From Proteromonas lacertae (taxonomy: Eukaryota), in NCBI GenBank assembly GCA_002245135.1, contig NGBS01000049.1:1-49476 (forward strand): DNA of 49,476 bases, written 5' to 3'. Within the stretch, counting starts at the first letter, position 1. Every line of letters starts with the position of its first letter. Shown here one piece after another: positions 2,053-31,973 of the stretch. The position numbers were made by a program, and so were the translations under genes. The notes below the pieces were generated by a model that saw only the letters and a program-made list of their open reading frames with translations, was not told the DNA's origin and ran no database searches.

Positions 2053-4259
2053 ATTGGCCTGAATATGTTACAGAAGCAGATGTTCAGGCATATGATAATG
2101 GAATGAATAGAGTTACAGATCCTTTGTTACAAAAATTTCCTAAATTACAAAATTATAAATCATTACAAGAGATTATAGAAAAAAATCCTCAATTAGCAGC
2201 CTATAAAAATTATAGACAAGATTGGTTGACCTCAACTTGGGATAAATTAACAGGTAATGATAAAGATGCAATAGAATATTATAACAAACTATTATTACAA
2301 CAGGAGTATTTGCAAAATGAATTAGTTGATGGAGTAAGTAAGATCAATCAATATTCAGATCCATATAATTTTGATCCGAATCGAGCTGAAAAAGTAAAAG
2401 AATATATTGCATTGAATAATCAAAAGGCACAAAGATATATGGATGATCAAGAGATATTAGAAAGATCAAAATTTTATAGATGGGCATTAGATCCAAAAAA
2501 TCAAGAACTGGTGAATAGTGCTATAGATATGGGTGAAGGACAGTGTACATTAATTAATGAAGATAAATATAGAGAACTGAATGAAATAGCATCACAAAAT
2601 AGTAGAGATTTCATTAACTTTGATTATAACAGAGAGAAGTTAGGTCACTCACTTCCTCAAGAGTGGGTGAATGCAGATAATAGACAAAAATATGAAATAG
2701 CTATTGGTTTAGTGAAAACTGCTTGTAGTTCATGGGCACAATTTGAAAATTCACAATTTCAAAAAGCACTTGATTCATTACGTGAATCTGATTTTATGGG
2801 TTTTGCTGGTAATTTGTTCCTGTGTGTAGAGAATGTATTTAGGATATTTCCACAAATATACTATACAATGAAGTCATATTTGGTAGGTGGAGTTACTCCT
2901 CAAATGTTTGAAGTAGATCATGCAATGAAATATGTTCGTGCAATAGTAATGACATGTTTGGCTTATTGGTTATGGAAAAAATCTAAACTACCAACATCAG
3001 GGTTCTTGTATGTAATGTGGTACTTTATTTTCGACTACTATGAAATAATTCGTATGCTGTCAGGTGGTAGATTACCTGCTATCACTGACTTGTATTATGG
3101 TAATTCAGAAAAAGTTAAGTCAATGTTACCTGAAGCAATTCAAAAATCATGGTTACCTGTAGACTTGTTGTATAACTTTGGTGTTTCATTTATGTTCAAT
3201 ACTCATCCATATGTTCGATACTTATTTCAATTAGTTCCATTCTTCTACAAATTTTCTAATATTGGAAATATAGATGCAAAAAATGTAGGTGATACATTAA
3301 AAACAGCAGCAACTGTAGCTGCAGCTGCAAATGGAGGTGATGCAACAACTGCTGCAGCAGCAGTTAAAGGTATCAGTGAATTATCAAAAGCTATGCCATC
3401 AATGGCAAAAACTGCTGTTGCAGCTGATCCAACAGGTACATTACAAACTGTTGCAGGTATAGGAACAGTATTCAGTGCATTGACTGCTTGTTTTGGTTTG
3501 CTAGATGCAGGTGGTTTATTAAACTGGTTAAAACCAACACCATATCAACACAAGAATGCAATCAAAATGGACAACTACGTGAAACGTTCACAACAAACAA
3601 TTCCAAGTTCACTCACTAATTTTGGTAGAGCAGTGAGTAATTTAGATCAAGCAAAACAACTCAGTGAAGCTATGAGTTACTTTGGAATAGGTAATGGAAA
3701 TAATAAAAAAGTAAAGAAATTAATTTCACGTAGGAAAGTTTTGTATAACAGTATCACTTCAGATACCTTATCGAACTTTGATATAGAGTTAATTGTGAAA
3801 AATGAGTTCAATAATTTCCATGGAAAGTTCATGGGAGTGTTCTGCTGGGACGAGCTTGTACTTCCTATACCCAAAAAGAAGAATCAATGGGGAATCATAA
3901 TCAATACACTCACCACACAAGCTAGCCCTAATTCTATAGGTCATTGGGTAGCCTTAGTAGTTGACAATATCAAGAAACAATTCCTGTACTATGATTCATT
4001 TGGTGAAGATCCTCAACACTTGGAAGAATTTAAAAAAAATTTGAAAAAATTAAAAAAGTATCATAATGAAAAGTATGAACTTAAAATCAATGGAGTACAG
4101 AATCAAAATTCAAATACTGCCAACTGTGGTTTTTTTGCTATTAATTTTTTGAAAAATATTTTAAGAGATCAGTGTAGTTTCAAAAAGGCTACTGACTATA
4201 ATACAATAGTGGGTGAAGCAAAAATTAGGTTAATGAAAAAACAATTTGGATTAATATAA
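2049..4259 (+). CDS. Large protein with C-terminal adenain-like (clan CE) cysteine protease domain
   Basis: The last ~180 aa contain IGHWVAL (His), YYDSFG (Asp) and QNSNTANCGFF (Gln/Cys) and align with the protease at 14649-15200. The N-terminal part is helical with hydrophobic and Ala-rich segments. The TTG start probably reflects a frameshift from 1471-2052. Confidence 0.85.
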   Translation: MNWPEYVTEADVQAYDNGMNRVTDPLLQKFPKLQNYKSLQEIIEKNPQLAAYKNYRQDWLTSTWDKLTGNDKDAIEYYNKLLLQQEYLQNELVDGVSKINQYSDPYNFDPNRAEKVKEYIALNNQKAQRYMDDQEILERSKFYRWALDPKNQELVNSAIDMGEGQCTLINEDKYRELNEIASQNSRDFINFDYNREKLGHSLPQEWVNADNRQKYEIAIGLVKTACSSWAQFENSQFQKALDSLRESDFMGFAGNLFLCVENVFRIFPQIYYTMKSYLVGGVTPQMFEVDHAMKYVRAIVMTCLAYWLWKKSKLPTSGFLYVMWYFIFDYYEIIRMLSGGRLPAITDLYYGNSEKVKSMLPEAIQKSWLPVDLLYNFGVSFMFNTHPYVRYLFQLVPFFYKFSNIGNIDAKNVGDTLKTAATVAAAANGGDATTAAAAVKGISELSKAMPSMAKTAVAADPTGTLQTVAGIGTVFSALTACFGLLDAGGLLNWLKPTPYQHKNAIKMDNYVKRSQQTIPSSLTNFGRAVSNLDQAKQLSEAMSYFGIGNGNNKKVKKLISRRKVLYNSITSDTLSNFDIELIVKNEFNNFHGKFMGVFCWDELVLPIPKKKNQWGIIINTLTTQASPNSIGHWVALVVDNIKKQFLYYDSFGEDPQHLEEFKKNLKKLKKYHNEKYELKINGVQNQNSNTANCGFFAINFLKNILRDQCSFKKATDYNTIVGEAKIRLMKKQFGLI

Positions 4260-4295
4260 TATATAATATATAATTATTACTTAATTATTTTTTTT

Positions 4296-4703
4296 TTATG
4301 TGTGGTGAAATATTGTATGAGTTTCAATATATTCTATCATCTCTCTATCCATATGAGTACATTTGAAGAATATTGGCATCTTACCATTAAAACATCTTTG
4401 TGGCATTCTAATGATTACTTTTTTCATTGTTGGTGTGTATGTAACTTTCGGATAATCTCTATTTCCTAAGTCACAAGGACCTACAAACACTAATATCAAA
4501 CGTTGACTCATGATCATGCTAATCATTTTGTGTGTTAACTCAAAATACCATTGATATATAGGTTTTCGATGATAAAAAAATATAAGGAATTGTAGGCTAT
4601 ACAAATCTAAGTATATGTCTGGACCACTTAAATGATATTTTTTTGTTACCTTGGATTCAAGTTCTGGTAATTTATATTCAATCTGTGGTGGTAGTGTAAG
4701 CAT
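4296..4703 (-). CDS. Hypothetical protein (135 aa)
   Basis: ATG-initiated ORF convergent with the protease fusion; no recognisable motif. Confidence 0.5.
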   Translation of the reverse strand: MLTLPPQIEYKLPELESKVTKKYHLSGPDIYLDLYSLQFLIFFYHRKPIYQWYFELTHKMISMIMSQRLILVFVGPCDLGNRDYPKVTYTPTMKKVIIRMPQRCFNGKMPIFFKCTHMDREMIEYIETHTIFHHT

Positions 4704-4738
4704 ATGTATAATAAAATATTTTTTTAAAAAAAGAAATT

Positions 4739-4833
4739 AAAAAAAATGGGATTACTAATAGTCTGTGCTAGGAATCGAACCATTAATGCCAGCTGCATGA
4801 CTCTTTTTTCCTTGCACAGTCTATCAGATCCCA
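4739..4833 (-). ncRNA. Candidate Pol III small structured RNA 1 (VA-RNA-like)
   Basis: On the minus strand, GGGAU-CUGAUAG-A-CUGUGC-A-AGGA pairs with UCCU-A-GCACAG-A-CUAUUAG-UA-AUCCC, with a G-U pair only on this strand. Perfect B-box GGTTCGATTCC at 4771-4781; ends in a T8 run (4739-4746). Confidence 0.6.
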
Positions 4834-4840
4834 ATTAAAT

Positions 4841-5035
4841 AAAAAAAGGGCATTTAGATATACCGTGCCAGGATGATTCAAGCCGAATTTCAATGGCGCA
4901 ATATTAAACAACACACATCCAAGTAGAAATTATTATTAAACTTCCATAAATTCCTTGTGAAATTAATTTAATAAATAAATAAATAATTATAAATTTGAAA
5001 CGCAGCCCTCATCGTAGCTAGTCTATCCAATGCCC
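4841..5035 (-). ncRNA. Candidate Pol III structured RNA 2 (VA-RNA-like), paralogue of RNA 1
   Basis: GGGCAUUGGAUAGACUAGCUACGAUGA pairs with UCAUCCUGGCACGGUAUAUCUAAAUGCCC (about 24 bp, three G-U pairs on the minus strand). Followed at once by T7 (4841-4847); no internal T4 despite an AT-rich interior. Confidence 0.55.
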
Positions 5036-5085
5036 AATAATAAAAAACAACATATACAATATATAGCATAATAAAAATTTATTCG

Positions 5086-6386
5086 TTACAATATTGATTT
5101 GTCTCCCTTCTTTCTCTTGGGTCTCTCCAGTATTTTTCTAAACCATGTGGTTGGTGCATCATCTTTTCTCACTAACTGCAACTCATAGTGTTTGAATCGA
5201 ATTAATGAAAAACCTTGAATGTCATTCCCATTGATATCACCTATATGTATGAATATCGATTTTTCTTGATTATCTTATATACATTGTCTGACCAGTATAT
5301 GTTCTTATCCATTTTACGTCTTCTCTCTTTGAATCTCACCAAATCACCTACTTCGAAATTTTGGCCAGTATGGCCCAATTTTTCATAATTCTTTCAGTTG
5401 TAGTTAATTGATTTTTGTAATATTTGTTTTTGTAATTCTGGACTATGGAATACTTCATTTGGGGTATATCCTTTAATTCCTGGTAATGGCTTGTTGTTAT
5501 AGTCATCTATCACTTCCTGTATTATACTATCTAGTTTTAATTTATAATTCATATCTGGTATAATATGCTTATCATTGTGATCAATATCTGCCATATATGT
5601 AGGTGCATCATATCCCAGATCCACCAAGTGTTTGTACAATAGTCTTCTTATCACACTCACTGATCTATCCAATAATGACTCTATTTTATGCTCAGAACCA
5701 TCTTTTTGAAAATATGATATTCCTTCAGCATCACATAACTTCTTGATATTTGAAAAACTAGCATCAGCATCTGATAGGATACTTACTACATTTTTATGTG
5801 TTTTGTTTCCATAGGCATCTGTTTCATAATACCACTTCTGAAATGCATCCAATGTAATATCACCATATTTATTAGGCATAAATATTGCCCATACTTTTCT
5901 TGAATTCATTTCGATAAAATACAAATGTTCCATATCAGGTAAGAAAAACACTATATCCATTTGGAAGTACCCAGGCTTCTTGATAGTTGCGAATGGATTA
6001 TTTTTTTTATATTTGAAATCGACAATTTGTTTTCCAGGTTGTCTCCTTAAGTATTCACGTACTACATCTGGTGGTGGAGCTATATCATTCATACTAGACA
6101 AATGTTGTGTCATTTTGACAAATTCATTTTCATTACGGTAATAATAATTTTTATATAGTTCATCTAAGCGTGATCGATATTAGGCAATTTGGTTTGACAT
6201 TTGGTCTTCATACGAAGCCTCTCTTGTTGGATGTGTAATATTCGGTGCTCCATGGTTAATATATGTTGCAAGTGATAAGTTACCATTTGTAGGTAACGGT
6301 TTGACAGGATATGGGTTCTCGTTGCTATATGAGCTGTATAAATGTGGATCGTAACTATTAGTGCTAAACATATGGTCCAAAAACAA
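5086..6386 (-). pseudogene. rve-type integrase 1, disrupted
   Basis: PGYFQMDIVFF / ILSDAD / LLDRSV core and YNNKP..IKGYTPNEV. The frame reads through TAA (6180-6182) into YRSRLDELYKNY and through TGA (5394-5396) into an SH3-like FEVGDLVRFKERR tail. One frameshift near 5245; stop at 5086. Colinear with integrase 2. Confidence 0.85.
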
Positions 6387-7327: not shown

Positions 7328-7496
7328 TCTCTGGTCCTAATTGGTTCAAATGATATATTGTGTTTGTGTGGGAGTGTTGTTTTCATAATTTACATAATTA
7401 ATTAGCATTATAACAAGTCTTATAAGAAATTTCAATAATAGAAAAATAGACGCGTTTCAAAAGTGATTTGGCTTGAACTCTATATTTTGTTTTATT

Positions 7497-7567
7497 TGAT
7501 ATAGGATGTTCACTATATGGTGTCATATCACACAGTATGGTGGCCATCCTATCTATCATTGTTTTTT
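7497..7567 (+). ncRNA. Long pre-miRNA-like hairpin followed by T6
   Basis: UGAU-AUAGGAUG-U-UCACUAUA..GUGU loop ACAC..UAUGGUGG-C-CAUCCUAU-CU-AUCA; two U-G pairs favour the + strand; T6 at 7562-7567. Confidence 0.45.
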
Positions 7568-8726: not shown

Positions 8727-9488
8727 TCAAGAAACTTCAGAATGATCTTCAATCAAAATATTAAAGTTTGCTCTAAAAACCTTTTTAACATTATCAATAT
8801 ATAAGAAGTTATATTGTGGCTTAGTAACAGCTAAATATAACTCTTTAAATGTTTCATATTCAGGTATCCATATATTCAATGAGTTGTATAAGTCAAACAA
8901 ATTTCTGTTACTCAATCCATAAAATGTTTAACAATAATCTACTTGCGATCTTGCTGAAGGTACTATATCAGTAATATATTGACTACTAATTATAATTTTT
9001 GATTTTAAATGTCTATTTTCTTTCATTAATACTGGTATGATATTAGCTGTTTTCAACTCTAAACTAAGATCATCAAATATTATAATATGTTCTGCATATT
9101 CATAATTATCTTTGTTTGTACCATCAATTGATTTCATTAACTTCTCTACTAAATTATCTCCTGAGTAAGGTTCAAATAATGAATCATTTTCATCATAACT
9201 AATTTCATTATAATCTAATAACTCTTTAATTGAATCATATATCCTATCTTGTTTGATTGTACCTACGAAAAAATGTACATGTTGTTTTTTCTTATATTTT
9301 GGATCTATAATATGTCTTAATATATTGTATATCAATGTAGTTTTCCCACTGTTCTTACGAGCTACAATAAATATATTGCAGAAAGGCTCATTAAAGTAAT
9401 CATAACCCAGAATTTTCTTATGATCAAATGACTCACCACCATCAACAGGTTCAATTTGTATATTATTTATTTTTTCAAATTTAAACAT
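8727..9488 (-). CDS. FtsK/HerA (A32-like) DNA packaging ATPase with one in-frame TAA at 8928-8930
   Basis: Walker A ARKNSGKTT, Walker B IIIFDD, Arg finger ENRH, SSQY. The frame continues C*TFYGLSNRN into ORF 8727-8915 (PQYNFLYID). Confidence 0.9.
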
Positions 9489-9558
9489 AGTGTATATATA
9501 TATTATGTAGTGAGAAATCAAAAAATAAAAATAGAAGTCAATAATAAAGTATTATTAC

Positions 9559-10873
9559 TTATACTACTTTTTCAACACCCCTTGGTCCAATAATCAATAG
9601 TTTATTTGAGCAATCCAAAGTAATTTTTAAATCACTTGCTAAGTCTTTACCAGCTCTTAATTTTAATTCAGTTAATCGATCAGTACTGAAATTTAGAACA
9701 TCAAAAAATGTTTTGGGAAATGAATATATATTACATTTATCATATAATGTATTTTGAATAATATTTCTCATATATTCCCAAGTTTGATATTTTGCAGGAT
9801 ATAAATAATCAGGTGTATAAACGAAATCATTAATTTGCCATCTTATTCTATCTTGATCTGATCAAAAGGAATAGGATCTCTTTTATATGCATCATTATAA
9901 TACAATATAAATTTAACATAACTTCCAATGCTACTATTAATACTGAAGTTATAGTTAAAAGTATTACTACCTGGAATAGGGTCTTTAGTGATTTGAACTA
10001 TATTAAAGTCAGTAAAGTCAATAGGATGATGAGTTGAATAATTAATGGTATTAGCATTACATGTTGGATCTTTATTGTAACAAATGTAAAGTCTAGGGTT
10101 AATAATTTTCATTCCTACATGTTGTTGCCATGAATTAATCCAAACAGAACCATTGCTATGATGAATTGAATATAAATGACTTCACCAAAATAAATATCAT
10201 TCTTCAAAGCTAATATAGTATTATAGAAATCTGCAAAATGAAATCTACAGTATAGTTTTCCATGTAATATATCTTCTGTTGTTCCCATTTCTTCCCAATA
10301 ATTCCAAACACCTCCATTTGCTTTTAAAGTAGAATTAGAATCACATATAGTTGTTTCAAGAATTTCATTATTATCAATGTGTAAGCCATCAAATAAATAT
10401 TGATAATAATTTTTATCTTTTATATCATAAGGATACTGATTAGCAATTTCATGAGCTAAATCTCGATATTCATTATAACTACTATCTAAATCACATAGAA
10501 GTGTTCCAGTTTTATTGTATACTTTGATAGTTCCAAAATTCATTGAATTCTTTAAATTTATATGATCTAATGTTTTACCACTAGTAGAAGTTACAGGTGT
10601 AATAGGTAATTTCCAATTTCCTGAACCTGAAGCTGCATGATCTCTTTTTTGACCTGTAGTATAATCTATTTCAAATTCAAAGTAACTTTTTGATAGATTA
10701 ACACAATTATCACCAGATATTTCAAATGTAATAGCATCACTGTTTGAATTTAAAGATAAAACAGTCTCATTTCTGCTTTGGTTAGGTGTAACTAAAATAT
10801 GATTGTAGACTGGTATATAAGCTGGCACAATGCTTTCATGTTTTTGTGAATTAGGTACAGCAGTGATTGACAT
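9559..10873 (-). CDS. Double jelly-roll major capsid protein (~437 aa), split by two frameshifts (~10165, ~9848)
   Basis: PLV MCP-like motifs ITFEISG..VNLSKSYFEFEI, IKVYNKTGTLLCDL, NTILALKNDIYFGEVIYIQF, INPRLYI. Lies between penton and ATPase. The fragments join via HHSNGSVWINSWQQHVG and RWQINDFVYTPDY. Confidence 0.8.
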
Positions 10874-11977: not shown

Positions 11978-14656
11978 ATGCAACCACAACCACAAGTTAA
12001 CAATTCAAATGATGATGAAGAAGATGAACCAACAGATGATGATTATGAATATGAAGAAGATGAAGATAATGTACCTATTGATATGAACAGAATAAGACAT
12101 AGAAGAAGACATAGAAGGAATCAAGTCATACCATTTCAAGATATAAGCGAAGATGATTTGAATAACTATGTGAATCAAGAAGTGAAAAGATTTAACAAAG
12201 CACTGATTATGCAATATAGACTAATTCCTATAGGATGGCCAAATCATGAATTTAATAGAATATATAATTTATATGATGAACATATGAAAATGTTTAATTG
12301 GTGTAAGAATTTATTTGTAACAGGTCCTTTTGCACATGGTAAACCATTAGAAGCTTATAATCCAAAATTAGCAGGAAATGAAAATTCTGCTAATGCAAGA
12401 GAATGTGGAATATTTAAAACTCGTATAGCAGATGGTATTGATAAATTGTGTATGGCATCTGATTTTATATTACAAAGAAATCCATTTGTTGTTTTACACC
12501 CAAAAGAGAGAATAGGCGTTACACAACTAGAAAATAGAAGAGTTAAAAAAACTCATTATGAAATTGATGAAAGACATCCAGAACCAGAAAATGATTTTAA
12601 CATAATGAATAATGAACATTATAATAGTGCAGCTGAAATAAGAGCGGAAAATGTTATGCAAAATAGACATGATAATATGGTAAGAGGAGTATTAGTAAAT
12701 GCAGACAATGGAAGTAATGATAATAACAATAATAACAACAATGGAAATAATAACAACGATAATAATGAAAATAATAACAACAATGCAAATTATGATATAA
12801 TTAGCTTTTGTGATTCTCTAAAAGATAAGTTAAAGTTCTACATAGGTCGTTTAATGAGAACTAAATTTTGGTATTTAACAAATCAAAAAGAAGAAACAGC
12901 TTATTCAATTGCATTAATCATATACAACTGTGTAACTGATTTGTATATATTAGCTTTATATTATATACCAATATTAAAAGATAAGTTAAGTGTTAATTAT
13001 CAAAATGATAATGAATATACTTTACCATATCATCCTGATAGAAGAAATTTTATGGGATTACCAGATGGTGATAATAGAACAGGATATAGATATAACTATT
13101 TAGCAACTATACAAAAAATATTATCAGAAGCTCATGTACCACAAGGTCAAATCAATACAAATATATTTGCTAATCCTATAACTTTTACAATGAATAGAGC
13201 TTTAGATACACAACTTAACCGTCAAATTAAACATAGAAGATCAGTTCCAGCTTATGTTGGAATGAATGTTGCAGATCATAGAAATTGGAGATATGTTGCA
13301 CCAACTAATTATCCTCATCCATCAATTACTGCAGATTTGATTGATAGAAATGTTAATGCATTTTATAATGCATCACCTGCAAATAGTGATAGTGAAGATA
13401 ATGATAATAATCCATCAAGTAGTGATACTGAAGAAGATTCAGACACTTATGATCTTGGTGATATGAGTAATCAAATACCACCTCCTCCTTTGCCACCAAG
13501 ACCTATACCAGCAAGAACTGTTCCACAACAACCACCTCCACCTCCTCCTGTATTAAATGTATCTAGATCTAATGTAATTAGTTTAAATAATCAATTTAAT
13601 CCTCATCATCTTATACCATCTGATAGATTTTCATTTTTAGTACCAGATGATTTGCTTAATGCTATACCAAATCCAAATAGAGACTTTAATAAATCTCATA
13701 GATTTTTAGCTAATAGAGAAAATGGTGCAAAAATAGGTGTAACTAAGATAATACAAGAGTTTTATACACAATTGTTAACAAATAATGGTAAAATATATTC
13801 AATTGATGCATTTATACATAACCATAATCCACCTTGTACAATTGTAGATGAAAATTCAAGCAAGAGTTATATGTTCTTTACTGATTGGGTTAGAGAAGAT
13901 AACATCAATTTACCTTTATTACCTAGATCTAAATATAATGCAACTGAAGTAAATGATATACCTCAAAATTACAGTAGTATCAATATAATGTTTTATGGAT
14001 ATGATTACAATAGAAATATATATTCATATACTGGTTTATTAGAATATTGGTTAAAGAATCATAGAGGAACAGCATTTAATGAAAGACAAGCTAAACAGGA
14101 AATATACATATATAATCCATGTATCAATATTCTAACAGATGATGAAGAGGAAAATAAAAACATAAAAGTATTAATAGGTATGGATTATGATAAAAATTGG
14201 CCTAACGATAAAAAAATCAAATGTAAACAAATCAAAGTAATAGTATCTCAAGAAAGTGATAGATCATGGTATGTAATAAGTGATCCAATGTTTGATTATA
14301 TGTCATGCGATATAGCAGGTGATGGAATTCACAAATTCTATAATTATCCATTCTTTGTTAAGATAGGAGATACAGTAGAATTGATAGTACCAGTATCTTT
14401 GAAAGATAATATTTATGTATTAAAAGATGCTAGATTAGATGATAAAGATGAAAATAATTATTTAAAAATTGATGATTATATGAGAAATGCAAATCGAGAT
14501 AGTATTAATCAAAGAGCTATTGATGATAGAGAAACAGCTAAGCGTAGAATACATGGTTTAGGTAAAAAGCGTAGAAGAAAAGCACAATCATTAATGAAAT
14601 TGTATACCAAATTGTTTACACACAATAATAAAAGAAAAAGAATAAAAATTATATAG
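11978..14656 (+). CDS. Large hypothetical element protein (892 aa)
   Basis: Intact ORF with acidic N-terminus, RRRHRR, poly-Asn, a Pro-rich linker and C-terminal HGLGKKRRRK. Confidence 0.75.
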   Translation: MQPQPQVNNSNDDEEDEPTDDDYEYEEDEDNVPIDMNRIRHRRRHRRNQVIPFQDISEDDLNNYVNQEVKRFNKALIMQYRLIPIGWPNHEFNRIYNLYDEHMKMFNWCKNLFVTGPFAHGKPLEAYNPKLAGNENSANARECGIFKTRIADGIDKLCMASDFILQRNPFVVLHPKERIGVTQLENRRVKKTHYEIDERHPEPENDFNIMNNEHYNSAAEIRAENVMQNRHDNMVRGVLVNADNGSNDNNNNNNNGNNNNDNNENNNNNANYDIISFCDSLKDKLKFYIGRLMRTKFWYLTNQKEETAYSIALIIYNCVTDLYILALYYIPILKDKLSVNYQNDNEYTLPYHPDRRNFMGLPDGDNRTGYRYNYLATIQKILSEAHVPQGQINTNIFANPITFTMNRALDTQLNRQIKHRRSVPAYVGMNVADHRNWRYVAPTNYPHPSITADLIDRNVNAFYNASPANSDSEDNDNNPSSSDTEEDSDTYDLGDMSNQIPPPPLPPRPIPARTVPQQPPPPPPVLNVSRSNVISLNNQFNPHHLIPSDRFSFLVPDDLLNAIPNPNRDFNKSHRFLANRENGAKIGVTKIIQEFYTQLLTNNGKIYSIDAFIHNHNPPCTIVDENSSKSYMFFTDWVREDNINLPLLPRSKYNATEVNDIPQNYSSINIMFYGYDYNRNIYSYTGLLEYWLKNHRGTAFNERQAKQEIYIYNPCINILTDDEEENKNIKVLIGMDYDKNWPNDKKIKCKQIKVIVSQESDRSWYVISDPMFDYMSCDIAGDGIHKFYNYPFFVKIGDTVELIVPVSLKDNIYVLKDARLDDKDENNYLKIDDYMRNANRDSINQRAIDDRETAKRRIHGLGKKRRRKAQSLMKLYTKLFTHNNKRKRIKII

Positions 14657-15200
14657 TTTTAAATTTTGTTTCTAACATTTTAGCTCTTTTTTCTCCTTTT
14701 AATGAATTAAAATTTGTTGCTTGCACAAACGATTTATTATTTACTATGATATCAACTAAAAACAAAATTGCATGATAACCACATCTTACACTATCAACTC
14801 TTTGATTTTTCACTCTGTTTATTTTTATCTTATATTCATCATTAGGATATTTTTTTAATTTTGTTAAATCTTTATAAAACTTTGTTATTTGCTTTGGTTT
14901 ATCTCCAAAACTATCATAGTACATTATCCTCCTAGCATTATTGTTAACACATAAACTAACCCAATGACCTATTTTACTTACAGGATCTTTAGTTGTATTA
15001 GTACAAAGTATAACACACCAAACATCATCATTTTTACATAGTTGACCTATTTTGCTAAGTTCATCCCATAATATAACACCTTTAAAATATTTTAATAGTC
15101 TAGGAAACATTTTTTTAATGATCTTTTCAATATCAAAATTTGAGATAGCATCTTCTTCATGCAAATCACCTGTAGCGAATAAAATACGTTGTCTAAACAT
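14649..15200 (-). CDS. Adenain-like maturation cysteine protease
   Basis: IGHWVSL, YYDSFG and QRVDSVRCGYH catalytic motifs are intact. Confidence 0.92.
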   Translation of the reverse strand: MFRQRILFATGDLHEEDAISNFDIEKIIKKMFPRLLKYFKGVILWDELSKIGQLCKNDDVWCVILCTNTTKDPVSKIGHWVSLCVNNNARRIMYYDSFGDKPKQITKFYKDLTKLKKYPNDEYKIKINRVKNQRVDSVRCGYHAILFLVDIIVNNKSFVQATNFNSLKGEKRAKMLETKFKTI

Positions 15201-15234
15201 TATTTAATAATTTAAAAGAATTTATTGAATATCA

Positions 15235-15261
15235 ATTCATTTGATAAATTCTTAATGTTTT
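15235..15261 (+). promoter_or_regulatory. Repeated upstream motif, copy 1 (ATTCATTTGATAAATTCTTAwTGTTTT)
   Basis: 26/27 identical to 15999-16025; ends 28 nt before ATG 15289. Confidence 0.65.
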
Positions 15262-15288
15262 TTAATATATATTTATGTTATTTAAATA

Positions 15289-15978
15289 ATGGGTAAGTTT
15301 AAAGATTGGTTAAAAAAATCTAAAATTCTATCTAGTGCAGCTAGTTTAATACCTTTTGCTGGACCAGCTATTAGTAGCAGTATAGAAAACATGGGATATG
15401 GTAAGAGAAGGCATAGAGGTAGGGTTGCAAGACATAGAGTTACTAGAATGTCACAATTTACACCTGATGGTAGATTCTTAGGTGATACTTCATCTATGAC
15501 TGGTGGTGGAACTGTTAAGTTTAGGACAAAATCTGGTAAAGTTGTTTCATTTCATACTAGCAAACGGAAGGGAGCTGGTTTAGGTAGTTTGTTTAAGAAA
15601 GGATGGAATAAAATAAGAAAAATAGCTACAAAAGACAAGAAATATATTAGTAATATATCAGGTAAGGTAGGTGACATTGCAACAAAATTAGGTTTTAATA
15701 AAGTTGGTGATATAGCAAATAATATAAGTTCCACTGCTAGTAACTATGGTTATGGAAAACGTAGAAGACATAGAGGCGGTAAAAGATTTGGACAAAATGG
15801 TGGACTTAGATTACCAATGAATGGTGGTAGTAAAATTCGTAGTATAGGTATTACTAAACCTCCTAGCAATAGGCCTATTTTAAATGGATTAGCTAAACCT
15901 TGTGGATTTAACCATAGAGGTTTATACAATCCACAAAACAGTTTACAAAGCTTTTTAGCTTACAAGTTAACAACATAA
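15289..15978 (+). CDS. Basic core / membrane-lytic precursor protein (functional analogue of adenovirus pVII/pVI/pX)
   Basis: Very Arg/Lys/Gly-rich. Two repeats of amphipathic helix plus GYG-KRR(R)HRG; also GAG, GGG and MNGG candidate protease sites. Confidence 0.65.
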   Translation: MGKFKDWLKKSKILSSAASLIPFAGPAISSSIENMGYGKRRHRGRVARHRVTRMSQFTPDGRFLGDTSSMTGGGTVKFRTKSGKVVSFHTSKRKGAGLGSLFKKGWNKIRKIATKDKKYISNISGKVGDIATKLGFNKVGDIANNISSTASNYGYGKRRRHRGGKRFGQNGGLRLPMNGGSKIRSIGITKPPSNRPILNGLAKPCGFNHRGLYNPQNSLQSFLAYKLTT

Positions 15979-15998
15979 ACTTTGTTATTGATTTTATT

Positions 15999-16025
15999 AT
16001 TCATTTGATAAATTCTTATTGTTTT
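15999..16025 (+). promoter_or_regulatory. Repeated upstream motif, copy 2
   Basis: 26/27 identical to 15235-15261; ends 27 nt before ATG 16052. Confidence 0.65.
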
Positions 16026-16051
16026 ATATATTTAAAAATAACATAATAATA

Positions 16052-16498
16052 ATGTATAATAAACGATACACAAGAGATTATTACGATGAAGAATCATCTT
16101 CTGACGATGATTATGATAATGATGCACCTTTAGCAAGAGATATGAGTAAGACTGATAGACAAATTGCAGAATTGTTATATAACTTAAATCATGTAAATGA
16201 CAAGCCTCCTACATCATCTAATTCTAAATTAAGTGAAGAGACTAGAAAGAAAAGAGCTGAAAATTTAGCCAAAGCAAGAGAAGCAAGAATGAACAAATTA
16301 AAAAACAAACAAGATACAAGTAATATATATTTAGAGCAACAACAACAACAACAAACACAAAAATCAAAATCAATTAGGTTACCAGGTGATAGTGATCCAT
16401 TTGCACAAACAAAACAAAGTAGCGGTAGTGGTTTAAAAATACCACCAGCAGATGCACCTATGCCTGGTGATAATGCTGTGATGCCAGTTTATTTTTAA
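16052..16498 (+). CDS. Small charged hypothetical protein
   Basis: ATG at 16052 follows the promoter motif; acidic patch, basic helix RKKRAENLAKAREARMNK, poly-Q and SGSGL. Confidence 0.65.
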   Translation: MYNKRYTRDYYDEESSSDDDYDNDAPLARDMSKTDRQIAELLYNLNHVNDKPPTSSNSKLSEETRKKRAENLAKAREARMNKLKNKQDTSNIYLEQQQQQQTQKSKSIRLPGDSDPFAQTKQSSGSGLKIPPADAPMPGDNAVMPVYF

Positions 16499-16507
16499 TT
16501 TTAAATT

Positions 16508-19500
16508 ATATTCAAAAAAAGCTTAAAGCAGATTTTAACAAAACGTTTATTGAAACGTATAAGAAGAAGAGCAAAAGTTAACAAATTTAACAAAGCTTTG
16601 AGAAAGACAGTGAATAAATCAGTTGGTGTAAGAGTAGATGAAGAAAGTGTTATGCGAAATAAAATGAGAGAAGCTGCTTTTACTAGGTTCAATATGGATC
16701 GATTAGCAACTCAAAATGATTTGTAAATGCTTCCAACTTTACTATCTGATCCAACTATATCAAAAGAAAAGAAATTAGCATTACAGAGTTATTATGATGC
16801 ATTAAAAAGCGGTCAAATTACAGCCAAAGATAGAGATTCATTTTTCGGTCCTGTACAATCTGCTTTATTAAGATCATTACCATATGATAGTTTCAATGGT
16901 GTAACAGAAAATTTAAAATATATAACCAAAACATTACCAACATTGGAACCTGATATTAATAATAAAAATGGTATACTTGCTAGAGCAATAGGTAACAAGA
17001 TTAACAAACGGAGGCATCTTTAACACTAGTAATATCTCCTCTACTACCTACACCTCATATCCTCCTCCTCCTCCTCCTCCTCCTTCCTTCTTCTATCCTC
17101 CGCCTGGGGGAGGGATGGGATTTGAACCAAGTGGTAGTGGTGGTGGTTCAACTTATATACCACCTCCACCCCCAGGAAGTAAATCTGGAAGCAGTGGTGG
17201 CACAAGTATGAGTAATAGAACTGATAGTTCTACAAATACTGAAACACTGTTTAGCAATCCTATACCAAATGGAACTATTGATTCAAGTACACAAATGGAA
17301 GAAGATGATGGTCCTGCTATTCCACCACCACCTGCAGCAGATAATGTTCCATCTGGTCCATCAGAAAGAGAAATAGAATTACAACAAAAATTAATACAGT
17401 TAGAAGAAATAGAAAATAAAAACAGACAATTAATGAAAAAATTAAAAGCAGAATACGAAGAACAAAAAGCATATAGAAAGAATATTGATGAAGCTTATGA
17501 AAATGCTATAAAAGAAATAAATAGTTACAAAATTAAAGAATCAGAAAAAGAATCATTATTAGCAAGTACAAAAAGGAAATATGAAGAGGATATTGAAAAC
17601 ATAAAAATTGAATATAAAAAATTGTATGATGAAAATAAAATACTATCTTCAAGAAAAATGAAAATTGATTTTGCAAGAAAAGAAATTGACAAACAATTAG
17701 ATGAAGCTAAACAAAGCATTGATAATTTAACAGAAGAAAATGAAAAATATCAAGAGAAATTATCTAGAATGAATGACGAAAATCAACGAATGCAAAGTGA
17801 TATGCTTTATTACCAAAATCAAAACAAAGAATTTCAAAACAATATAAATGCATTAAATAGTCAAAATTCCTCTTATCAAAATCAAATACACTCTTTAAAT
17901 AATAACATTGTAGGTTATAAATAACACTAAAGTAAAAGAAATGGAAATATTGAAAAAAGATCAAAACCGAAAAGATGATTATCCTCAAGTAGGAGCATTA
18001 ATGGTTCAATTAAAAAATATGGAAGAAAAATACAAAATTTTAGACTATGATAAAAAAGCATGTGAAAACACAATTAGACATTTACAAGATGAAAGAGATG
18101 AATTTGTCAGTAAAAATACAGCATATTCTCAAGAAGTTGATATATTGAAACAACAGAATAATCAAATAATTCATGATTATAATGAAAATCAAAAGAAACA
18201 TTAGCAACTCAAATGGAATCATTAAAAGAAGAAAATGAAGCTTTAAAAAGAGAAAAAGAAGAGATTAGAAGAGATTTAAATAATCAACTAAGTAATGCTG
18301 AACAATCAAAAAATGATTTGTATACTTCTTTAGCTCAAAAACAAAATGAAATAGAAAGTATGAAACAACAATTTAATCTTATGAATAATGAATTCAATGC
18401 ATATAAGCAAAATGCTGATAATGGTTATGCGAATAAAGAAAAAGAGAAAAAGCAAATGTTATTTAGAATTAGTGAATTAGAAAATGAGAAAAAGCAAATC
18501 GAAATAAGACATTATAATACTAATCAAGAATTAATACAAAGAAATAGTGAAATAAATACTTTAACAGCAGATAGAAATTTAGCTGTACAAAATTTAAATA
18601 AATTAATGGAAGAACATAAAATGGTATCAGAGTTATTACAAAATGAAACAAATATGAAAGCAGAAGATAGAAGGAAATATGAACAACTACAAAGTACATA
18701 CGATAAAGCAATTGCAGAATATACAGAAAAAATTACTGCAGCTGAAAATAGTATAAATGTATTAGCAAATGAAAAGAGTTTGTTAGAACAAAATTTAAAA
18801 AATACTGCAACTGAAAAAGATTCATGGATCAATAAATATAAGACTGATTCAAAAAAATACAAAAAATGGCATGAATCTGAAATGAAGAAAAATTCAGAAT
18901 TTTATGAAAGAAATTAGAAACAAAAATTAAAAAATATGGAACAAGAGCATGCTAATAAGTTGAACGAATTACGCGAAACATTGAATAGTTCTAAGAATGC
19001 AACTTATACTGATTTTGGTACATTAGATATTTATAATGATGCATATAATGAACCAAGTATACAAGTATATATGCCAGAACCAGAAGTGAATAACAAATAT
19101 GATCCTAATAATGATTTTGATGATGATACTGGCGCTAATAACACTGCTAGAACTAATAATCCAGTTACATCAGATGATGTAGAAATGAGATTAAAAGAAG
19201 TCAAACAAAAAGAAACTGAATTACCAGAAACATTAACAGTGAATAGAGTTGCTGAATTATTACGTAAAAAACGTAGAAATGATACAAGACAAAGAATTAA
19301 AAGAACTTATGAATATTTAATGACACAATCTAACTTAGATGACAAAGAAAAACTAAGATACAATAAAATAAAGAGCAGGAGAAATAATAACAATGATAGT
19401 GTACCTTATAATGAGAATGATTTACATGAAAAAGACTTTGATCTAGAATATAATATACATGCAAAACGTAAGTATGATACTGAACCTAAAACTGATGATA

Positions 19501-19835
19501 GAAAATTCAAGAATTTATTTGTTAATACTAATGATAATACTTATTCTCAAGCAATACATGAAGAAATGAAACCACCTGTATTTAAAAGAAATATTGTTTA
19601 TGATAATTATGATGATGATGATGAAGATGATGGTAAAATTATAAGACATAAATACAAACCTAATCTATATGATAACGATACTAAAGCTAGAGACAGAGAA
19701 AGATATATTAAATCATTAGACAGATTCATAAATCATAATTCATGACATTTAAGCGAAAATGAAAGAGTTTATGCTGATAGTTTAATTAAGAATTTATTAC
19801 CTGATTTTGTTGAAGTAGATGATGAGTACATGTAA
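16508..19835 (+). pseudogene. Long coiled-coil protein (~1100 aa), disrupted
   Basis: Basic N-terminus open from ATA 16508. In-frame TAA 16724, frameshift ~17005, poly-Pro/Gly linker, long heptad coiled coil with frameshifts ~17920 and ~18198, in-frame TAG 18915 and TGA 19743, final TAA 19833-19835. Confidence 0.6.
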
Positions 19836-19864
19836 AGAAAACAATTATATATATAATATAAGTA

Positions 19865-22800
19865 TTAATTAATTATTATTATTTTATATCCATATGGCAA
19901 TGTATTGTATTTATCAAAAAAATATCTTTTATCATCATAATAGGTTAAGCCAGTTTTGTTTTGTACTGTTGTATAAACATTATGATGTATTGATTTGATT
20001 TGACATACTTCGTATTTTTGACTTTTACTAGCACCTTCAACAAAATCATTGTATATATCATAAGTTATTTTTCTAGAAACTTTCACATTAATACCTTTAC
20101 AACGATTGTCAGTATTAGTATTATTATCAGAATCATCATTCACTTTCTCCTTTTCGTATATATAGCACTTTGATTTTAATCCTATAAACTTTGTTATAAC
20201 AAATAGATTTACATTATTCTTATCCTGTTCTTCAAATTTTAATCGATTCAATGTACCTAGATGAACAGCTCTATGTATATCTAACTTATAATTTTCTAAA
20301 TAAGGATTTTTCAAATTACTTCCATCAATCCAATTATTAAAGATAGGATCCTCTAAGTCTTCAAAAATATCATTAGTTTCAACTGAGAAAAGTAAACTAT
20401 CAGTATCAGTCATACATAGTGTTAGCTTATCAGAACCATATTTTTTATCTAATGCATCATACCAATATTTGTTCATTTTGAGTTTAGATAGTGCTAAGAT
20501 AACCATTCCAATTTGTATAGGTTTATTAATTTCATATAGCTTCTTATGAAAATGTGCAATTTTTAAATCACCTTCAATAATGATAAAGTCTTTAAACCAT
20601 GGATCGCTTGCATCAATCATTTGGTCTTCATTAGTAATTAAAGATATGTTACTTCTCTTTTCAACACGTTCCATAAATTTACCGTATAAACTATTCATTA
20701 ATTTCTTTATATAGTCTGCAGTAGTATTTTGATTGTTTTCTTTAGCTTGGACTCTTTTTTGTACCATTGTATTAATATATTTACCCATATATAGACCTTC
20801 AGTAAATCTCATTATTCTATGCACTTTGCCCACTTTATAACCATGTTCAACTGCAAACTTCAAATTTTGGTAGTGTATTATATATTTTTCTTTAGGATAC
20901 AAATCAGTTATTAATTTCTCAGTAGCATGGTAAGTACCTCTTTCTTTATGTATAATACCAAGATTTTCAGCTCTTTCAGTTTGTATATCAGATAACCATT
21001 CTTTAGGTATTTTCTTCCTTTCAGGTAGCAGTGGGTATTCTTTAAACTTGTCTTGTAGTTCTATAGGTAATTCGATATCAACTTCTAATATATAACCAAA
21101 ATCATTATTCTCCAATCTATCTTGATCCATTTCTTCATAATATGGCAAATCAAGTATACTTTCTAATGTAATAGAATTTGGATCAATAAATTCAAAGTCA
21201 TCTAAAGGCATTTTACAAGAAGCCATAACTGAAGGGTATAAAGAATTGTAGTCTTGATATAATAAGAATTTACTAGGTAAAGTTTCATCATAATTTTTCA
21301 TAAATTTGTTATTTGCATCTTCCTTACGCTTACCAATATATGATAATCCACCGTATAAGCCATTCAATATAAAATCATAGTATTCAGGTTCACAAAATAA
21401 TTTAAGTTCCACATCAGATACATGTAAGAATAAATCAAGTGATAAACTGGGTAATGAAATATACCAACAAGGATCTATGTGAAAAGTATCAAATATATTA
21501 TCTCTAAAATCATTAAATATAGACTGAAGAATATAAACATCGATTTTCAAGTAAAATAAATTATATTCACGAATAGTATTAAATCCAAATATTTGATTTA
21601 CTTCCATAGCAAAATCAAATTCTTCAGGTTTAATAGTTTCATTATCATTCAATTTAGACTTAAAATCATCTATAGTAAGATCTTTGAAATTTTCTTCAAA
21701 AGCTTCAAGAGATGTCATATGCTCATATGGAAAATAATTCTTTTGAAGTAAGTATTTTTCAATAATTTCATCATCTAGGTAATGTCCATTATATTCTTTA
21801 AAATTCTCATAAATTGTTTTGAATTTTTCTTTCTTAGTATTATTTAATTCTGCTGTAATTTTTAGATCACTAGTTAAATTTGCTAAAGAACCTGCTAAGA
21901 ATAAATAACTATCAATAAACACCAAATTCTTGTATTGTATACACTTATAGTTTTCATCTGTATTAGGTATAATATTGAGAGGACTACCACTATCTGCTGC
22001 ATATTTTGCTAATTTCTTTACTATGAAATGCTGGTCATATTTCATAGCATTATGACCTATTATTGGTATTTTTAATTTTTTTATATCAATATTTAGATTC
22101 TCATTACTACCAATTGAAGCAATATAATGGCCTGTAAAATGATCATGGTGAAGTACCTTTACATGATCAATAGAATTAAATGGTTTACCACAAAAGTCAC
22201 ATTTTCTCTTTTTATTATGTATATCCTTAGCTTTTTCATCTCCATCAAATGGTTTAGGATTATTTAGTCTATAATTGTAAACTGTACATATTTGATCGTA
22301 TATATTTAATATATCCAATACAAAATCATTTTCAATATTATGATCCTCATTTTGTTTATATTTAATCACAGTAAAACTGTTTATATCTGGTATTTTACTA
22401 TCTACATAGATACAGTAAGAATAAAGCTTATGCCTAGCCATAATAGATTGTTCAGTTTTTGATAATTCTATTCTAGTATCATTATCATCTATTTCTTCCA
22501 TAGATTTATATCTACTTAAATTCAATTCATTATCATATGGTACAAAATAAGTTTCAGTATCATAATACATAACAACTGGCAATGTTTGGAGGTGAGTCCA
22601 ATGTCTAAATTTTAAGTATGATTTTTCTTTATCATCTTTATCAGGGAATAATCTTAATACATTCTCTTTATCTTGACAGTCATATGTTTGATGACTATTG
22701 AATGATGCTTCATCGTATGTATAGAAGAGACAATATGGACACACAAATATATTATTAGTATTATTCTTTTTATCTATCATTTTTCTAAATAGAGCAGGTA

Positions 22801-23944
22801 ATGTATTTATTGTCACATAGTGTGAATTTCCATCTTCATTTTTTATTAGCAATAGATTTACAACACTATATTTTTTAGATTTCTTTTGTTTAGATAAATG
22901 AATGGGTAAGAATATTTCTTCTTTATCTTTACCAATGTCAATATAGAATATATTCACATTTAGTCGATTCTTTGTTTCAAATTTATCAATAGAATCATTG
23001 TCTGTAGCATCAACAGGGAATGTTAACATACTCCAATCATGTTTCTTTTCATACATTTTGTATTTTTCAGGTTTATCTTTATTACATTGTAGATTATTAG
23101 AATATAATGAGTATAGTATACTCCACTTAAAACATTCATTATCTTCATTTATTACATTTGTCAAACATCTAAGACCTTGAAGTTTAGCAGGTAAAACAAT
23201 AAAACTACTTCCACGTATCACTTTAAATTTTGTTACATATAATTCAATAGTATTTACTCTAGCAAAAGTAAGACCACTTTGAGGATGATTTGAATCATCT
23301 TCTGATATTTGTGTAAATATATTCTCCAGTATAGTTTGTATTTCACCTACAGTAGACATTTTTGTTATTTCACATAGTCTACTACGACTAAATATAGAAA
23401 CTTCATCATCACTATCAGTAGACTCATCAGGTATATAAATTGAACGTACAATAAAGAAGAATTTTATCATATTCATAGTATCAGCTAGTTCATGCAATAT
23501 ATCTTTAATATCACTATTATTAACAAAATCATGATAACATTGTTGTGGTGTACTGTAATTTCTATTGTTATAATTGAAAACCCATTTCCTGGTAACACCT
23601 TGAGATGATTTATCAACTTCTCTAGCATCACGTATTCTATCATTAAATCTTTGATTTTGGTTAGGTTTTGGTAGGGAAGAAGGCATTAATCCACCAAAGA
23701 ATGTATCACTGATTATTGGTATATTATTATTGTATCTTCTTTTATTTTGAATAACATCTGTACTAAATAATGGCGCTAATCTTCGTTTTGGAGCTTCTTC
23801 TGGTGGTGGAGGTGGAGGTGGTGGTTCATCTATATGTTTATGTTTATGATGATGGTGATGCTTATGCTTATGATGTTTATTTTTATTAAAAGTTTGTTCT
23901 AGAAGCTTAAAAAATGCTTTTAAAAGCTTTTTATGTTTGCTCAT
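19865..23944 (-). CDS. Protein-primed family B DNA polymerase (1359 aa from MSKHKK)
   Basis: Exo I YYDTET, Exo II GHNAMKYD, Exo III YLKID; Pol motifs QDYNSLYPSVM, KLMNSLYGK, TDTDS, KSKCY, CKGI. Also an OTU-like DNECF...HYV, a zinc finger CPYC..H..C, and an EndoVII-like CDFC..HHDHFTG insert. Confidence 0.97.
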   Translation of the reverse strand: MSKHKKLLKAFFKLLEQTFNKNKHHKHKHHHHHKHKHIDEPPPPPPPPEEAPKRRLAPLFSTDVIQNKRRYNNNIPIISDTFFGGLMPSSLPKPNQNQRFNDRIRDAREVDKSSQGVTRKWVFNYNNRNYSTPQQCYHDFVNNSDIKDILHELADTMNMIKFFFIVRSIYIPDESTDSDDEVSIFSRSRLCEITKMSTVGEIQTILENIFTQISEDDSNHPQSGLTFARVNTIELYVTKFKVIRGSSFIVLPAKLQGLRCLTNVINEDNECFKWSILYSLYSNNLQCNKDKPEKYKMYEKKHDWSMLTFPVDATDNDSIDKFETKNRLNVNIFYIDIGKDKEEIFLPIHLSKQKKSKKYSVVNLLLIKNEDGNSHYVTINTLPALFRKMIDKKNNTNNIFVCPYCLFYTYDEASFNSHQTYDCQDKENVLRLFPDKDDKEKSYLKFRHWTHLQTLPVVMYYDTETYFVPYDNELNLSRYKSMEEIDDNDTRIELSKTEQSIMARHKLYSYCIYVDSKIPDINSFTVIKYKQNEDHNIENDFVLDILNIYDQICTVYNYRLNNPKPFDGDEKAKDIHNKKRKCDFCGKPFNSIDHVKVLHHDHFTGHYIASIGSNENLNIDIKKLKIPIIGHNAMKYDQHFIVKKLAKYAADSGSPLNIIPNTDENYKCIQYKNLVFIDSYLFLAGSLANLTSDLKITAELNNTKKEKFKTIYENFKEYNGHYLDDEIIEKYLLQKNYFPYEHMTSLEAFEENFKDLTIDDFKSKLNDNETIKPEEFDFAMEVNQIFGFNTIREYNLFYLKIDVYILQSIFNDFRDNIFDTFHIDPCWYISLPSLSLDLFLHVSDVELKLFCEPEYYDFILNGLYGGLSYIGKRKEDANNKFMKNYDETLPSKFLLYQDYNSLYPSVMASCKMPLDDFEFIDPNSITLESILDLPYYEEMDQDRLENNDFGYILEVDIELPIELQDKFKEYPLLPERKKIPKEWLSDIQTERAENLGIIHKERGTYHATEKLITDLYPKEKYIIHYQNLKFAVEHGYKVGKVHRIMRFTEGLYMGKYINTMVQKRVQAKENNQNTTADYIKKLMNSLYGKFMERVEKRSNISLITNEDQMIDASDPWFKDFIIIEGDLKIAHFHKKLYEINKPIQIGMVILALSKLKMNKYWYDALDKKYGSDKLTLCMTDTDSLLFSVETNDIFEDLEDPIFNNWIDGSNLKNPYLENYKLDIHRAVHLGTLNRLKFEEQDKNNVNLFVITKFIGLKSKCYIYEKEKVNDDSDNNTNTDNRCKGINVKVSRKITYDIYNDFVEGASKSQKYEVCQIKSIHHNVYTTVQNKTGLTYYDDKRYFFDKYNTLPYGYKIIIIN

Positions 23945-23957
23945 TATATAGACAGAA

Positions 23958-24019
23958 TTCGCGAAATAAATCAAAAATGGAAATATGAAATTTGATTGGT
24001 CGGATGATTTGATTGGTCG
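23958..24019. promoter_or_regulatory. Bidirectional promoter: TTCGCGAA palindrome plus two CCAAT boxes
   Basis: TTCGCGAA at 23958-23965; ATTTGATTGGTCG repeated at 23990-24002 and 24007-24019 (CGACCAATCA on the minus strand), between divergent ATGs. Confidence 0.6.
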
Positions 24020-24103
24020 ACTTTAAAAATAAAAAGAAATTTTCATTTTCATTTTTCTTGACATTTTTTATCATTTTTTATTTTCATCTCTCCCTTATAT
24101 AAA

Positions 24104-24889: not shown

Positions 24890-24957
24890 TTTAATTATAT
24901 TTTAATTCATTAATTCTTTAAATATATATCATTCATATTTTTATATATATTATTTGA

Positions 24958-27871: not shown

Positions 27872-28005
27872 ATGATTATTATTAACATATATATTTCTTT
27901 ATTATTTTTGTTCTTTTATTTAATTTATTTTGCTCTGAAGATCAACCCATTGATTTAGATCTGGTTTAAGCAAAGGATGTTCCTTTTTGTCCATTCACTT
28001 TCAGC

Positions 28006-31838: not shown

Positions 31839-31973
31839 TCATACTTTGATAGTTATTATTTCATTTTATTATTTATTTACTTCTAGTTGATTCATCTACA
31901 CACACATTTTCTCTCACTTTCATTTTCACAATCAAACACTTTATGTTTCAGGTCATTCAATACAGAAAAAAAA

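What the first reader, a model, noticed from the sequence alone, without database searches (positions are those of the whole stretch)
4739..5035. Tandem pair of VA-RNA-like Pol III ncRNA candidates inside a Polinton-like virus
Seen in sequence: two back-to-back minus-strand units (~87 nt and ~188 nt). Each starts at a GGG, closes a 22-24 bp imperfect terminal stem whose G-U wobbles work only on the minus strand, and ends in T7-T8. They share GAUAGACU in the 5' arm and UCCURGCACRG in the 3' arm, so they look paralogous, with pairing preserved despite divergence. Unit 1 has a perfect B-box (GGTTCGATTCC) next to an A-box-like TGGCATTAATGG. Established: adenoviruses, which are relatives of Polintons, encode tandem Pol III VA-I/VA-II RNAs with terminal stems that antagonise dsRNA sensing and Dicer. 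Inference: this protist Polinton may encode analogous counter-defence RNAs. I am not aware of these being described in Polintons, but I could not search.
Basis: partly seen in the sequence, partly recalled or inferred. Interest (0 to 1): 0.9.

Follow-up and report, generated by a model that had tools for sequence, protein, structure and literature searches.

The report
Paired Pol III-type RNAs in Polinton
A virus-like Polinton element in an unidentified single-celled eukaryote carries two back-to-back non-coding units, each predicted to fold into a long stem that ends at a run of T. They likely are small RNA genes read by RNA polymerase III, and might act as decoys against host defence, but no RNA data or related copies could be obtained.

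Summary
The observation mostly holds. Two minus-strand units (5035-4848, 188 nt; 4832-4747, 86 nt) fill a non-coding gap in a Polinton-type element. They fold far better than shuffles (z -3.7 to -6.0), and their stems close at T7 and T8. The long unit has 7 G-U against 1 A-C opposition and no internal T4 despite 38% T (138 of 20,000 shuffles). The short unit has a perfect B box at +52 (8 of 20,000).

No A box is above chance, and the long unit lacks a real B box. Paralogy is only modestly supported, and no pair is kept by a change on both sides.

They are not VA RNA family members: there is no GGGU/ACCC tetrastem and no Rfam hit. No homologous DNA or RNA run was obtainable, so transcription and covariation are untested.

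Best reading: a tandem pair of Pol III panhandle RNA genes (about 55%), perhaps sharing one B box. A decoy role against host dsRNA sensing or RNAi is inference (about 25%). New variant of a known kind.

The parts
4848..5035 (-). Long unit, 188 nt: predicted panhandle. GC-rich arms (51% and 43% GC) close a 20%-GC core with three predicted hairpins and an overlapping ATTTA repeat near 4986-4970
4841..4847 (-). T7 run directly after the long stem; predicted Pol III terminator
5010..5020 (-). A-box-like 11-mer at +16 of the long unit (1 mismatch; chance level)
4874..4884 (-). B-box-like 11-mer of the long unit, in roughly the same place relative to the 3' arm as the short unit's B box (3 mismatches; chance level)
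4747..4832 (-). Short unit, 86 nt: predicted interrupted hairpin (32 pairs in the MFE fold, 3 of them G-U)
4771..4781 (-). Exact B box at +52 of the short unit. It does not sit in a tRNA-type T arm: only 2 of 5 flanking pairs form
4739..4746 (-). T8 run one base after the short stem; predicted Pol III terminator
5079..6113 (-). Context: upstream integrase-like gene, broken by frameshifts after the 239-aa ORF. Its apparent stop is 44 nt before the long unit
   Evidence: 29% identity to the element's other integrase, E 7e-25
4296..4703 (-). Context: downstream 135-aa ORF with no Pfam, PHROG or database relative; its ATG is 36 nt after the T8 run

Best explanation
The two units likely are a tandem pair of small non-coding RNA genes of the Polinton, which the host's RNA polymerase III would read on the minus strand from each GGG to the T7 or T8 run, giving predicted panhandle RNAs of about 190 and 90 nt. 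Shown in the sequence: non-coding position, GC-rich complementary arms, stems closing at the T runs, no internal T4, G-U bias, one exact B box. Inferred: TFIIIC binds the B box in the short unit. That one B box may also serve the long unit's A-box-like element 228 bp upstream, across the first terminator, as in yeast SNR6 (202 bp). Inferred: the pair arose by local duplication, with an AU-rich core inserted or lost. Most likely job, inferred and about 25% overall: abundant imperfect duplexes that bind and occupy host dsRNA-binding or Dicer-type proteins, in the manner of adenovirus VA RNAs, acquired independently of them. Next most likely is processing of the stems into small guide RNAs.
For: - Folding z -3.7 to -6.0 on the minus strand, weaker on plus.
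- Rank among 132 T runs. T>=6 runs start in a given 3-nt slot of element intergenic DNA with P about 0.013 (18 runs in 4136 strand-bases), and both stems have one.
- No T4 inside the long unit although it is 38% T with 10 TTT runs: 138 of 20,000 dinucleotide shuffles; 127 of 2555 equally T-rich windows lack T4. The short unit has an internal T6 only on the plus strand.
- Strand-neutral arm alignment gives G-U:A-C of 7:1 (long). Three host DNA inverted repeats give 9:6.
- Exact B box in the short unit, 8 of 20,000 shuffles.
- Arms are 43-51% GC against 19% in the other intergenic DNA.
- A scan for B-like box + T>=5 + closing stem returns only these two units in the window (the B pattern was loosened after seeing the long unit).
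- Directed arm-to-arm similarity: 5 to 121 of 3000 shuffles across four tests.
- Extragenic B box precedent: PMC9136082, passages.
Against: - No A box above chance in either unit, and no real B box in the long unit.
- An exact B box also occurs antisense inside a coding gene (17118-17128), and 2 exact plus 1 near match in the window is chance level (32 of 100 shuffles).
- No two-sided compensation between the units; 4 of 19 aligned pairs are broken.
- Their similarity does not beat a window-wide null: about 31 against a null mean of 34-35.
- The long unit starts only 44 nt after the integrase stop, so a 3'-UTR role is open.
- No homologous copy was found in three pattern scans or in 88 distant loci, so conservation is unknown.
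- This copy is decaying (broken integrase; ATPase ORF of 186 aa against 246-254 aa in three of its four closest relatives), so signals may be eroded.
- The decoy function rests only on analogy.
Confidence: 0.55

Rival explanations
1. The stems are cis-acting structures in polymerase II mRNA. The long unit is a structured 3' UTR of the integrase mRNA with an AU-rich element, and the short unit is a 3'-end hairpin or a leader for the 135-aa ORF.
For: The long unit starts 44 nt after the apparent integrase stop and the next ATG is 36 nt after T8, all on the same strand. The overlapping ATTTA repeat in the core is the only one of its length in the window. G-U bias fits any RNA of that strand.
Against: This does not explain the T runs exactly at both stem ends, T4 avoidance or the B box. 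3'-end hairpins are not a rule in this element: of 15 gene 3' regions only this one reached z about -2.8, the other 14 ranged from -1.7 to +1.4 (12 shuffles each).
Confidence: 0.2
2. The units are relics of small non-autonomous DNA transposons (GGG...CCC terminal inverted repeats) inserted side by side, and the pairing is DNA symmetry, not RNA structure.
For: Both have GGG...CCC ends. The short stem is flanked by ATT on both sides. With DNA parameters the strand difference is small, about 2 kcal/mol.
Against: G-U:A-C is 7:1 in the long unit against 9:6 in host DNA inverted repeats. The long unit has no matching flanks. The ends of the two units share only GGG. No further copy exists in 49 kb. 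T4 avoidance and the B box are left unexplained.
Confidence: 0.1
3. One captured, tRNA- or vault-like host Pol III gene, kept mainly as a TFIIIC-binding site or a transcription barrier between genes. The RNA, if made, has no job.
For: Only the B box is statistically clear. Vault RNAs conserve little beyond boxes A and B (PMC7058938, passages). tRNA genes occur in PLVs and virophages (PMC12220804, PMC6905037, passages).
Against: Long stems with strand-specific wobbles and T4 avoidance over 188 nt point to selection on the RNA itself. ARAGORN and Rfam find no tRNA or vault RNA, and the B box is not in a T arm.
Confidence: 0.12
4. Chance folding in a GC-richer patch of intergenic DNA.
For: Several coding windows fold as well by residual z. 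Each feature was examined after the units were pointed out.
Against: Two adjacent units each combine a long stem with a T run at its end, plus T4 avoidance in one and an exact B box in the other, all on one strand.
Confidence: 0.03

Closest known systems
Adenovirus VA RNAI/II (Rfam RF00102; PMC7589676, PMC6599070, passages read)
   Same: Two adjacent genes in a linear dsDNA virus with protein-primed polymerase; terminal stem joining the 5' and 3' ends; wobble-rich duplexes; internal B box (one unit); oligo-U end; G start.
   Different: No GGGU/ACCC tetrastem in either unit. Lengths are 86 and 188 nt, not about 160. The B box lies in the 3' half next to the 3' arm, not in the apical loop. No significant A box. 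No Rfam match. The host is a microbial eukaryote, not a vertebrate with PKR/OAS (host range of PKR recalled).
Vault RNAs and EBV EBERs (PMC7058938, passages read)
   Same: Small Pol III RNAs with internal boxes and little other conservation. Paired ends, a variable middle and a B box near the 3' arm match the vault layout (layout recalled, not from a call).
   Different: No RF00006 or other hit at E<=10; A box not demonstrable; no evidence that the host has vaults.
tRNA genes of Polinton-like viruses, virophages and MELD viruses (PMC12220804, PMC6905037, PMC8502044)
   Same: Show that these elements carry genes of the class that Pol III reads. The B box here sits at +52, as in tRNA (position recalled).
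   Different: These units are not tRNAs: no cloverleaf, no T arm, and 24 nt between the B box and the T run.
Yeast SNR6 promoter layout (PMC9136082, passages read)
   Same: An extragenic B box beyond the terminator, 202 bp from the A box; here the gap would be 228 bp.
   Different: Here that B box lies inside a second gene, the A box is at chance level, and the shared use is untested.

Membership tests
Adenovirus VA RNA | GGGU/ACCC tetrastem in the central domain | tested here: not met
   no GGGT or ACCC in either unit; feature
Adenovirus VA RNA | Match to RF00102 | tested here: not met
   6 weak hits at E<=10 in 4600-5200, none VA; 0 at gathering score
Adenovirus VA RNA | Intragenic box A and box B | tested here: inconclusive
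   exact B box in the short unit only; A boxes at chance level
Adenovirus VA RNA | Terminal stem followed by an oligo-U terminator | tested here: met
   predicted in both units
Adenovirus VA RNA | Inhibits PKR, saturates Dicer or Exportin-5 | not testable with these tools
   needs biochemistry; host unidentified
Type 2 Pol III gene | No T4 or longer inside the unit, T run at the end | tested here: met
Type 2 Pol III gene | A box near +8 to +25, separated from a downstream B box | tested here: inconclusive
Type 2 Pol III gene | Discrete triphosphorylated transcript | not testable with these tools
   no reads were available to lay
tRNA / tRNA-derived unit | Cloverleaf or T arm around the B box | tested here: not met
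   ARAGORN 0 genes; 2 of 5 T-stem pairs
Vault RNA | Match to the Rfam vault model | tested here: not met
MITE (non-autonomous DNA transposon) | Strand-symmetric TIRs, target-site duplication, dispersed copies | tested here: inconclusive
   asymmetric wobbles in the long unit; 3-bp repeat flanks only the short unit; no genome to search
Polinton / Polinton-like virus (context) | pPolB, rve integrase, A32 ATPase, adenain-like protease | tested here: met
   DNA_pol_B_2 E 1.9e-26, Pox_A32 1.6e-5, Peptidase_C48/C5 about 1e-7 to 1e-4; rve only 0.004, below its cut-off
Polinton / Polinton-like virus (context) | Double jelly-roll capsid and terminal inverted repeats | tested here: inconclusive
   single-sequence model of 10115-10873 had pLDDT 31.6; no element-spanning repeat among the 25 longest shown; the left end appears to lie outside the window

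The most novel reading that the evidence does not exclude
Polinton-type viruses of single-celled eukaryotes make their own abundant Pol III decoy RNAs: a VA-like tandem pair run from one shared B box, evolved independently of adenoviruses, that blocks a protist dsRNA-sensing or RNAi defence.
Probability: 0.25. Interest if true: 0.85.

Novelty: new variant of a known kind. Interest (0 to 1): 0.55.

Why it matters
Viral Pol III panhandle RNAs (VA, EBER) are known from vertebrate viruses. Non-coding RNAs reported for Polinton-like viruses in the passages I read come from Rfam and ARAGORN scans, which cannot see new families. If these units are transcribed, Polintons of microbial eukaryotes use the same strategy, and the RNAs would be a bait for finding the antiviral RNA sensors of a protist. 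A single B box serving two tandem genes would also be an unusual promoter economy.

Tried and rejected
- No whole genome is held for the window.
- Sequencing runs: none was listed, no RNA holder listed, so no reads were laid.
- Pattern scans for the shared 3' arm gave 0 in viral, metagenome and prokaryote collections (the pattern and 64 matches both units).
- One search used a wrong gap (1-25 nt; the real gap is 36) and its 107 hits are uninformative. blastn of the units against 112 loci gave only matches of 20 nt or less for the short unit, E>=0.05.
- Locus searches with the neighbouring integrase, protease and pPolB found no relative. The ATPase alignment found only 26-37% relatives: 5, 80 (best of 185) and 3 loci.
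- In 85 of those loci (505 kb) the layout scan gave 3 candidates, 2 non-coding, both much weaker (-0.18 and -0.16 kcal/nt against -0.26 and -0.40). nhmmer with the arm profiles found nothing in 88 loci.
- Close relatives of the ATPase (66-90%) exist only as Logan proteins without retrievable DNA.
- The chained-motif test let chains run too long and was discarded; redone.
- MAFFT misregistered the 3' arms, so the pair count on it is void; redone. No covariance model was built.
- The step-15 sliding scan cut off the short unit's first two bases, so its rank there (11th peak) understates it.
- The host was not identified: AP-2 mu is about 50-57% identical to its best hits in diverse eukaryotes. 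The Blastocystis TGTTTGTT signal occurs 4 times in 49 kb, against about 1 per 3 kb in Blastocystis, so I do not call it Blastocystis.
The capsid model was unusable and no fold search was run. The bacterial promoter/terminator scan was at chance level.
- Supplement search of PMC12220804 found none of six terms, not even 'snRNA', so its Rfam tables were probably not among the two files held and may bear on novelty.

Full report
Context. The window holds a Polinton-type element from before base 1 to about 27.9 kb. It has pPolB (19865-23944), an rve-like integrase (24958-25974), an A32 ATPase (8928-9488) and two adenain-like proteases, followed by AT-rich host DNA with an AP-2 mu gene that appears split by short introns. 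The finding lies in a 375-nt gap (4704-5078) between a second, frameshifted integrase gene and an orphan 135-aa ORF, both on the minus strand. No ATG ORF of 40 aa or more overlaps the gap. The capsid and termini were not confirmed and the host is unidentified.

The observation. The long unit runs 5035-4848 into T7, and after 8 nt the short unit runs 4832-4747 into T8. On the minus strand they fold at -49.6 and -35.0 kcal/mol, z -3.7 and -6.0, with 0 of 300 shuffles as low; the plus strand gives z -1.3 and -4.3. Nearly all outer stem pairs have probabilities of 0.8-1.0, while the long unit's inner hairpins are uncertain. Good folding alone is not special here, since several coding windows reach residual z -4 to -5.5. 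What is special is where the stems end. Of 132 T>=6 runs in the window, the short unit ranks first for 90-nt windows, and the long unit is third for 190-nt windows and best among those closing within 3 nt of the run. Such runs start in a given 3-nt slot of intergenic element DNA with probability about 0.013.

Evidence that the minus-strand RNA is what is selected. A strand-neutral alignment of each 5' arm with its 3' arm gives 7 G-U against 1 A-C in the long unit, 1:0 in the short outer stem (1:1 over the full arms), and 9:6 in three host DNA inverted repeats. The long unit is 38% T, has ten TTT runs and no TTTT. This occurs in 138 of 20,000 dinucleotide shuffles and in 127 of 2555 equally T-rich windows. 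The plus strand of the long unit also lacks T4, but the short unit has an internal T6 on plus. T4 avoidance is what a Pol III transcript needs (VA terminators are four U, PMC7589676).

The promoter is the weak part. The short unit has an exact B box at +52 (8 of 20,000 shuffles) that is not in a T arm. Window-wide, B-box matches are at chance level, and one lies antisense in a coding gene. The best 5' A boxes have 1 mismatch (long, +16) and 2 mismatches (short, +7), both chance level, and the long unit's best B box has 3 mismatches. One economical reading is that the single B box serves both genes. It lies 228 bp beyond the long unit's A-like element, close to the 202 bp of yeast SNR6, whose B box is downstream of the terminator (PMC9136082). 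This is inference. Decay in this copy is the alternative.

Paralogy. Directed arm comparisons give 38 and 121 of 3000 shuffles (5' arm) and 37 and 5 of 3000 (3' arm); the arms are complementary, so these tests are not independent. In a blind window-wide two-arm search the partner scores about 31 against a null mean of 34-35. Of 19 aligned stem pairs, 14 are identical, 1 is kept by a one-sided change, 4 are broken and none is kept by a two-sided change; one C:G pair is inserted on both sides. Duplication is likely but not proven, and there is no covariation evidence.

Relatives. ATPase relatives at 66-90% identity exist but only as proteins. No copy of the units was found by pattern, by profile in 88 distant loci or by layout in 85 of them. 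Those loci are 26-37% relatives and mostly short, so this says little about conservation.

Comparison. The units work like VA RNAs in layout only. The tetrastem that defines VA function (PMC6599070, PMC7589676, passages) is absent, and Rfam gives nothing. VA RNAs are proposed to derive from cellular tRNA genes, so shared ancestry with Polintons is not needed. tRNA genes and other Rfam classes are reported in PLVs, virophages and MELD viruses.

Literature. Searches: 'VA RNA'+'Polinton' 0 papers; 'virophage'+'non-coding RNA'+'polymerase III'+'adenovirus' 0; 'Polinton'+'RNA polymerase III'+'non-coding RNA' 4 general reviews, listing only; 'Maverick'+'Polinton'+'small RNA'+'hairpin' 7, listing only, none on this by title or abstract start. 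The library lacks most subscription papers. I read passages of PMC7058938, PMC7589676, PMC6599070, PMC12220804, PMC6905037, PMC5608401 and PMC9136082, and passages plus section 3.4 of PMC8502044. Earlier AI notes of this scan describe Pol III-type or hairpin units in Polintons of other genomes, mostly described as animal. They are unchecked, I could not test them, and none matched this sequence. They suggest the theme recurs but add no evidence for this locus.

Verdict. These are real, strand-specific structured units, most likely a Pol III small-RNA gene pair (0.55). Rivals are mRNA cis-structures (0.2), a captured Pol III signal with no RNA function (0.12), MITE relics (0.1) and chance (0.03). 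The decoy role is about 0.25 overall. New variant of a known kind; interest 0.55.

Noticed in passing
window 7436-7565: A third structured non-coding block between convergent genes: a 62-nt hairpin (7498-7559, z about -5 on both strands) followed by T6 on plus, beside 7446-7485. That stretch shares two motifs with the long unit, each found only twice in the window, and has a B-box core on the minus strand at 7478. The likeness is not above a window-wide null and Rfam gives nothing credible. It could be a third small RNA.
   Followed up: partly
window 2103-6113 versus 14649-25974: The element has two integrase-like genes (29% identical) and two adenain-like proteases, and GC is about 0.30-0.35 in most of 1-7 kb against about 0.25 in 8-12 kb. 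Two joined or nested elements are possible, so the units may belong to the left one.
   Followed up: partly
window 27940-28095 and 29620-29670: A GC-richer hairpin near the apparent right end of the element (-27 kcal/mol), with a 33-nt direct repeat shared with 29635-29667; possibly the terminus or a target-site relic.
   Followed up: no
window 8728-10873, 16727-18917: Several element genes look broken into consecutive ORFs (ATPase shorter than most close relatives; 10115-10873, 9843-10112 and 9559-9771; coiled-coil ORFs), consistent with a decaying copy or with sequence errors.
   Followed up: no
window 38640-45598: Host genes with many He_PIG Ig-like repeats and a PA14 domain, with duplicated fragments at 31.4-31.9 kb.
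   Followed up: no
window 30072-34208: A host inverted duplication with arms totalling about 600 nt at 76-95% identity; used here only as a DNA control.
   Followed up: partly
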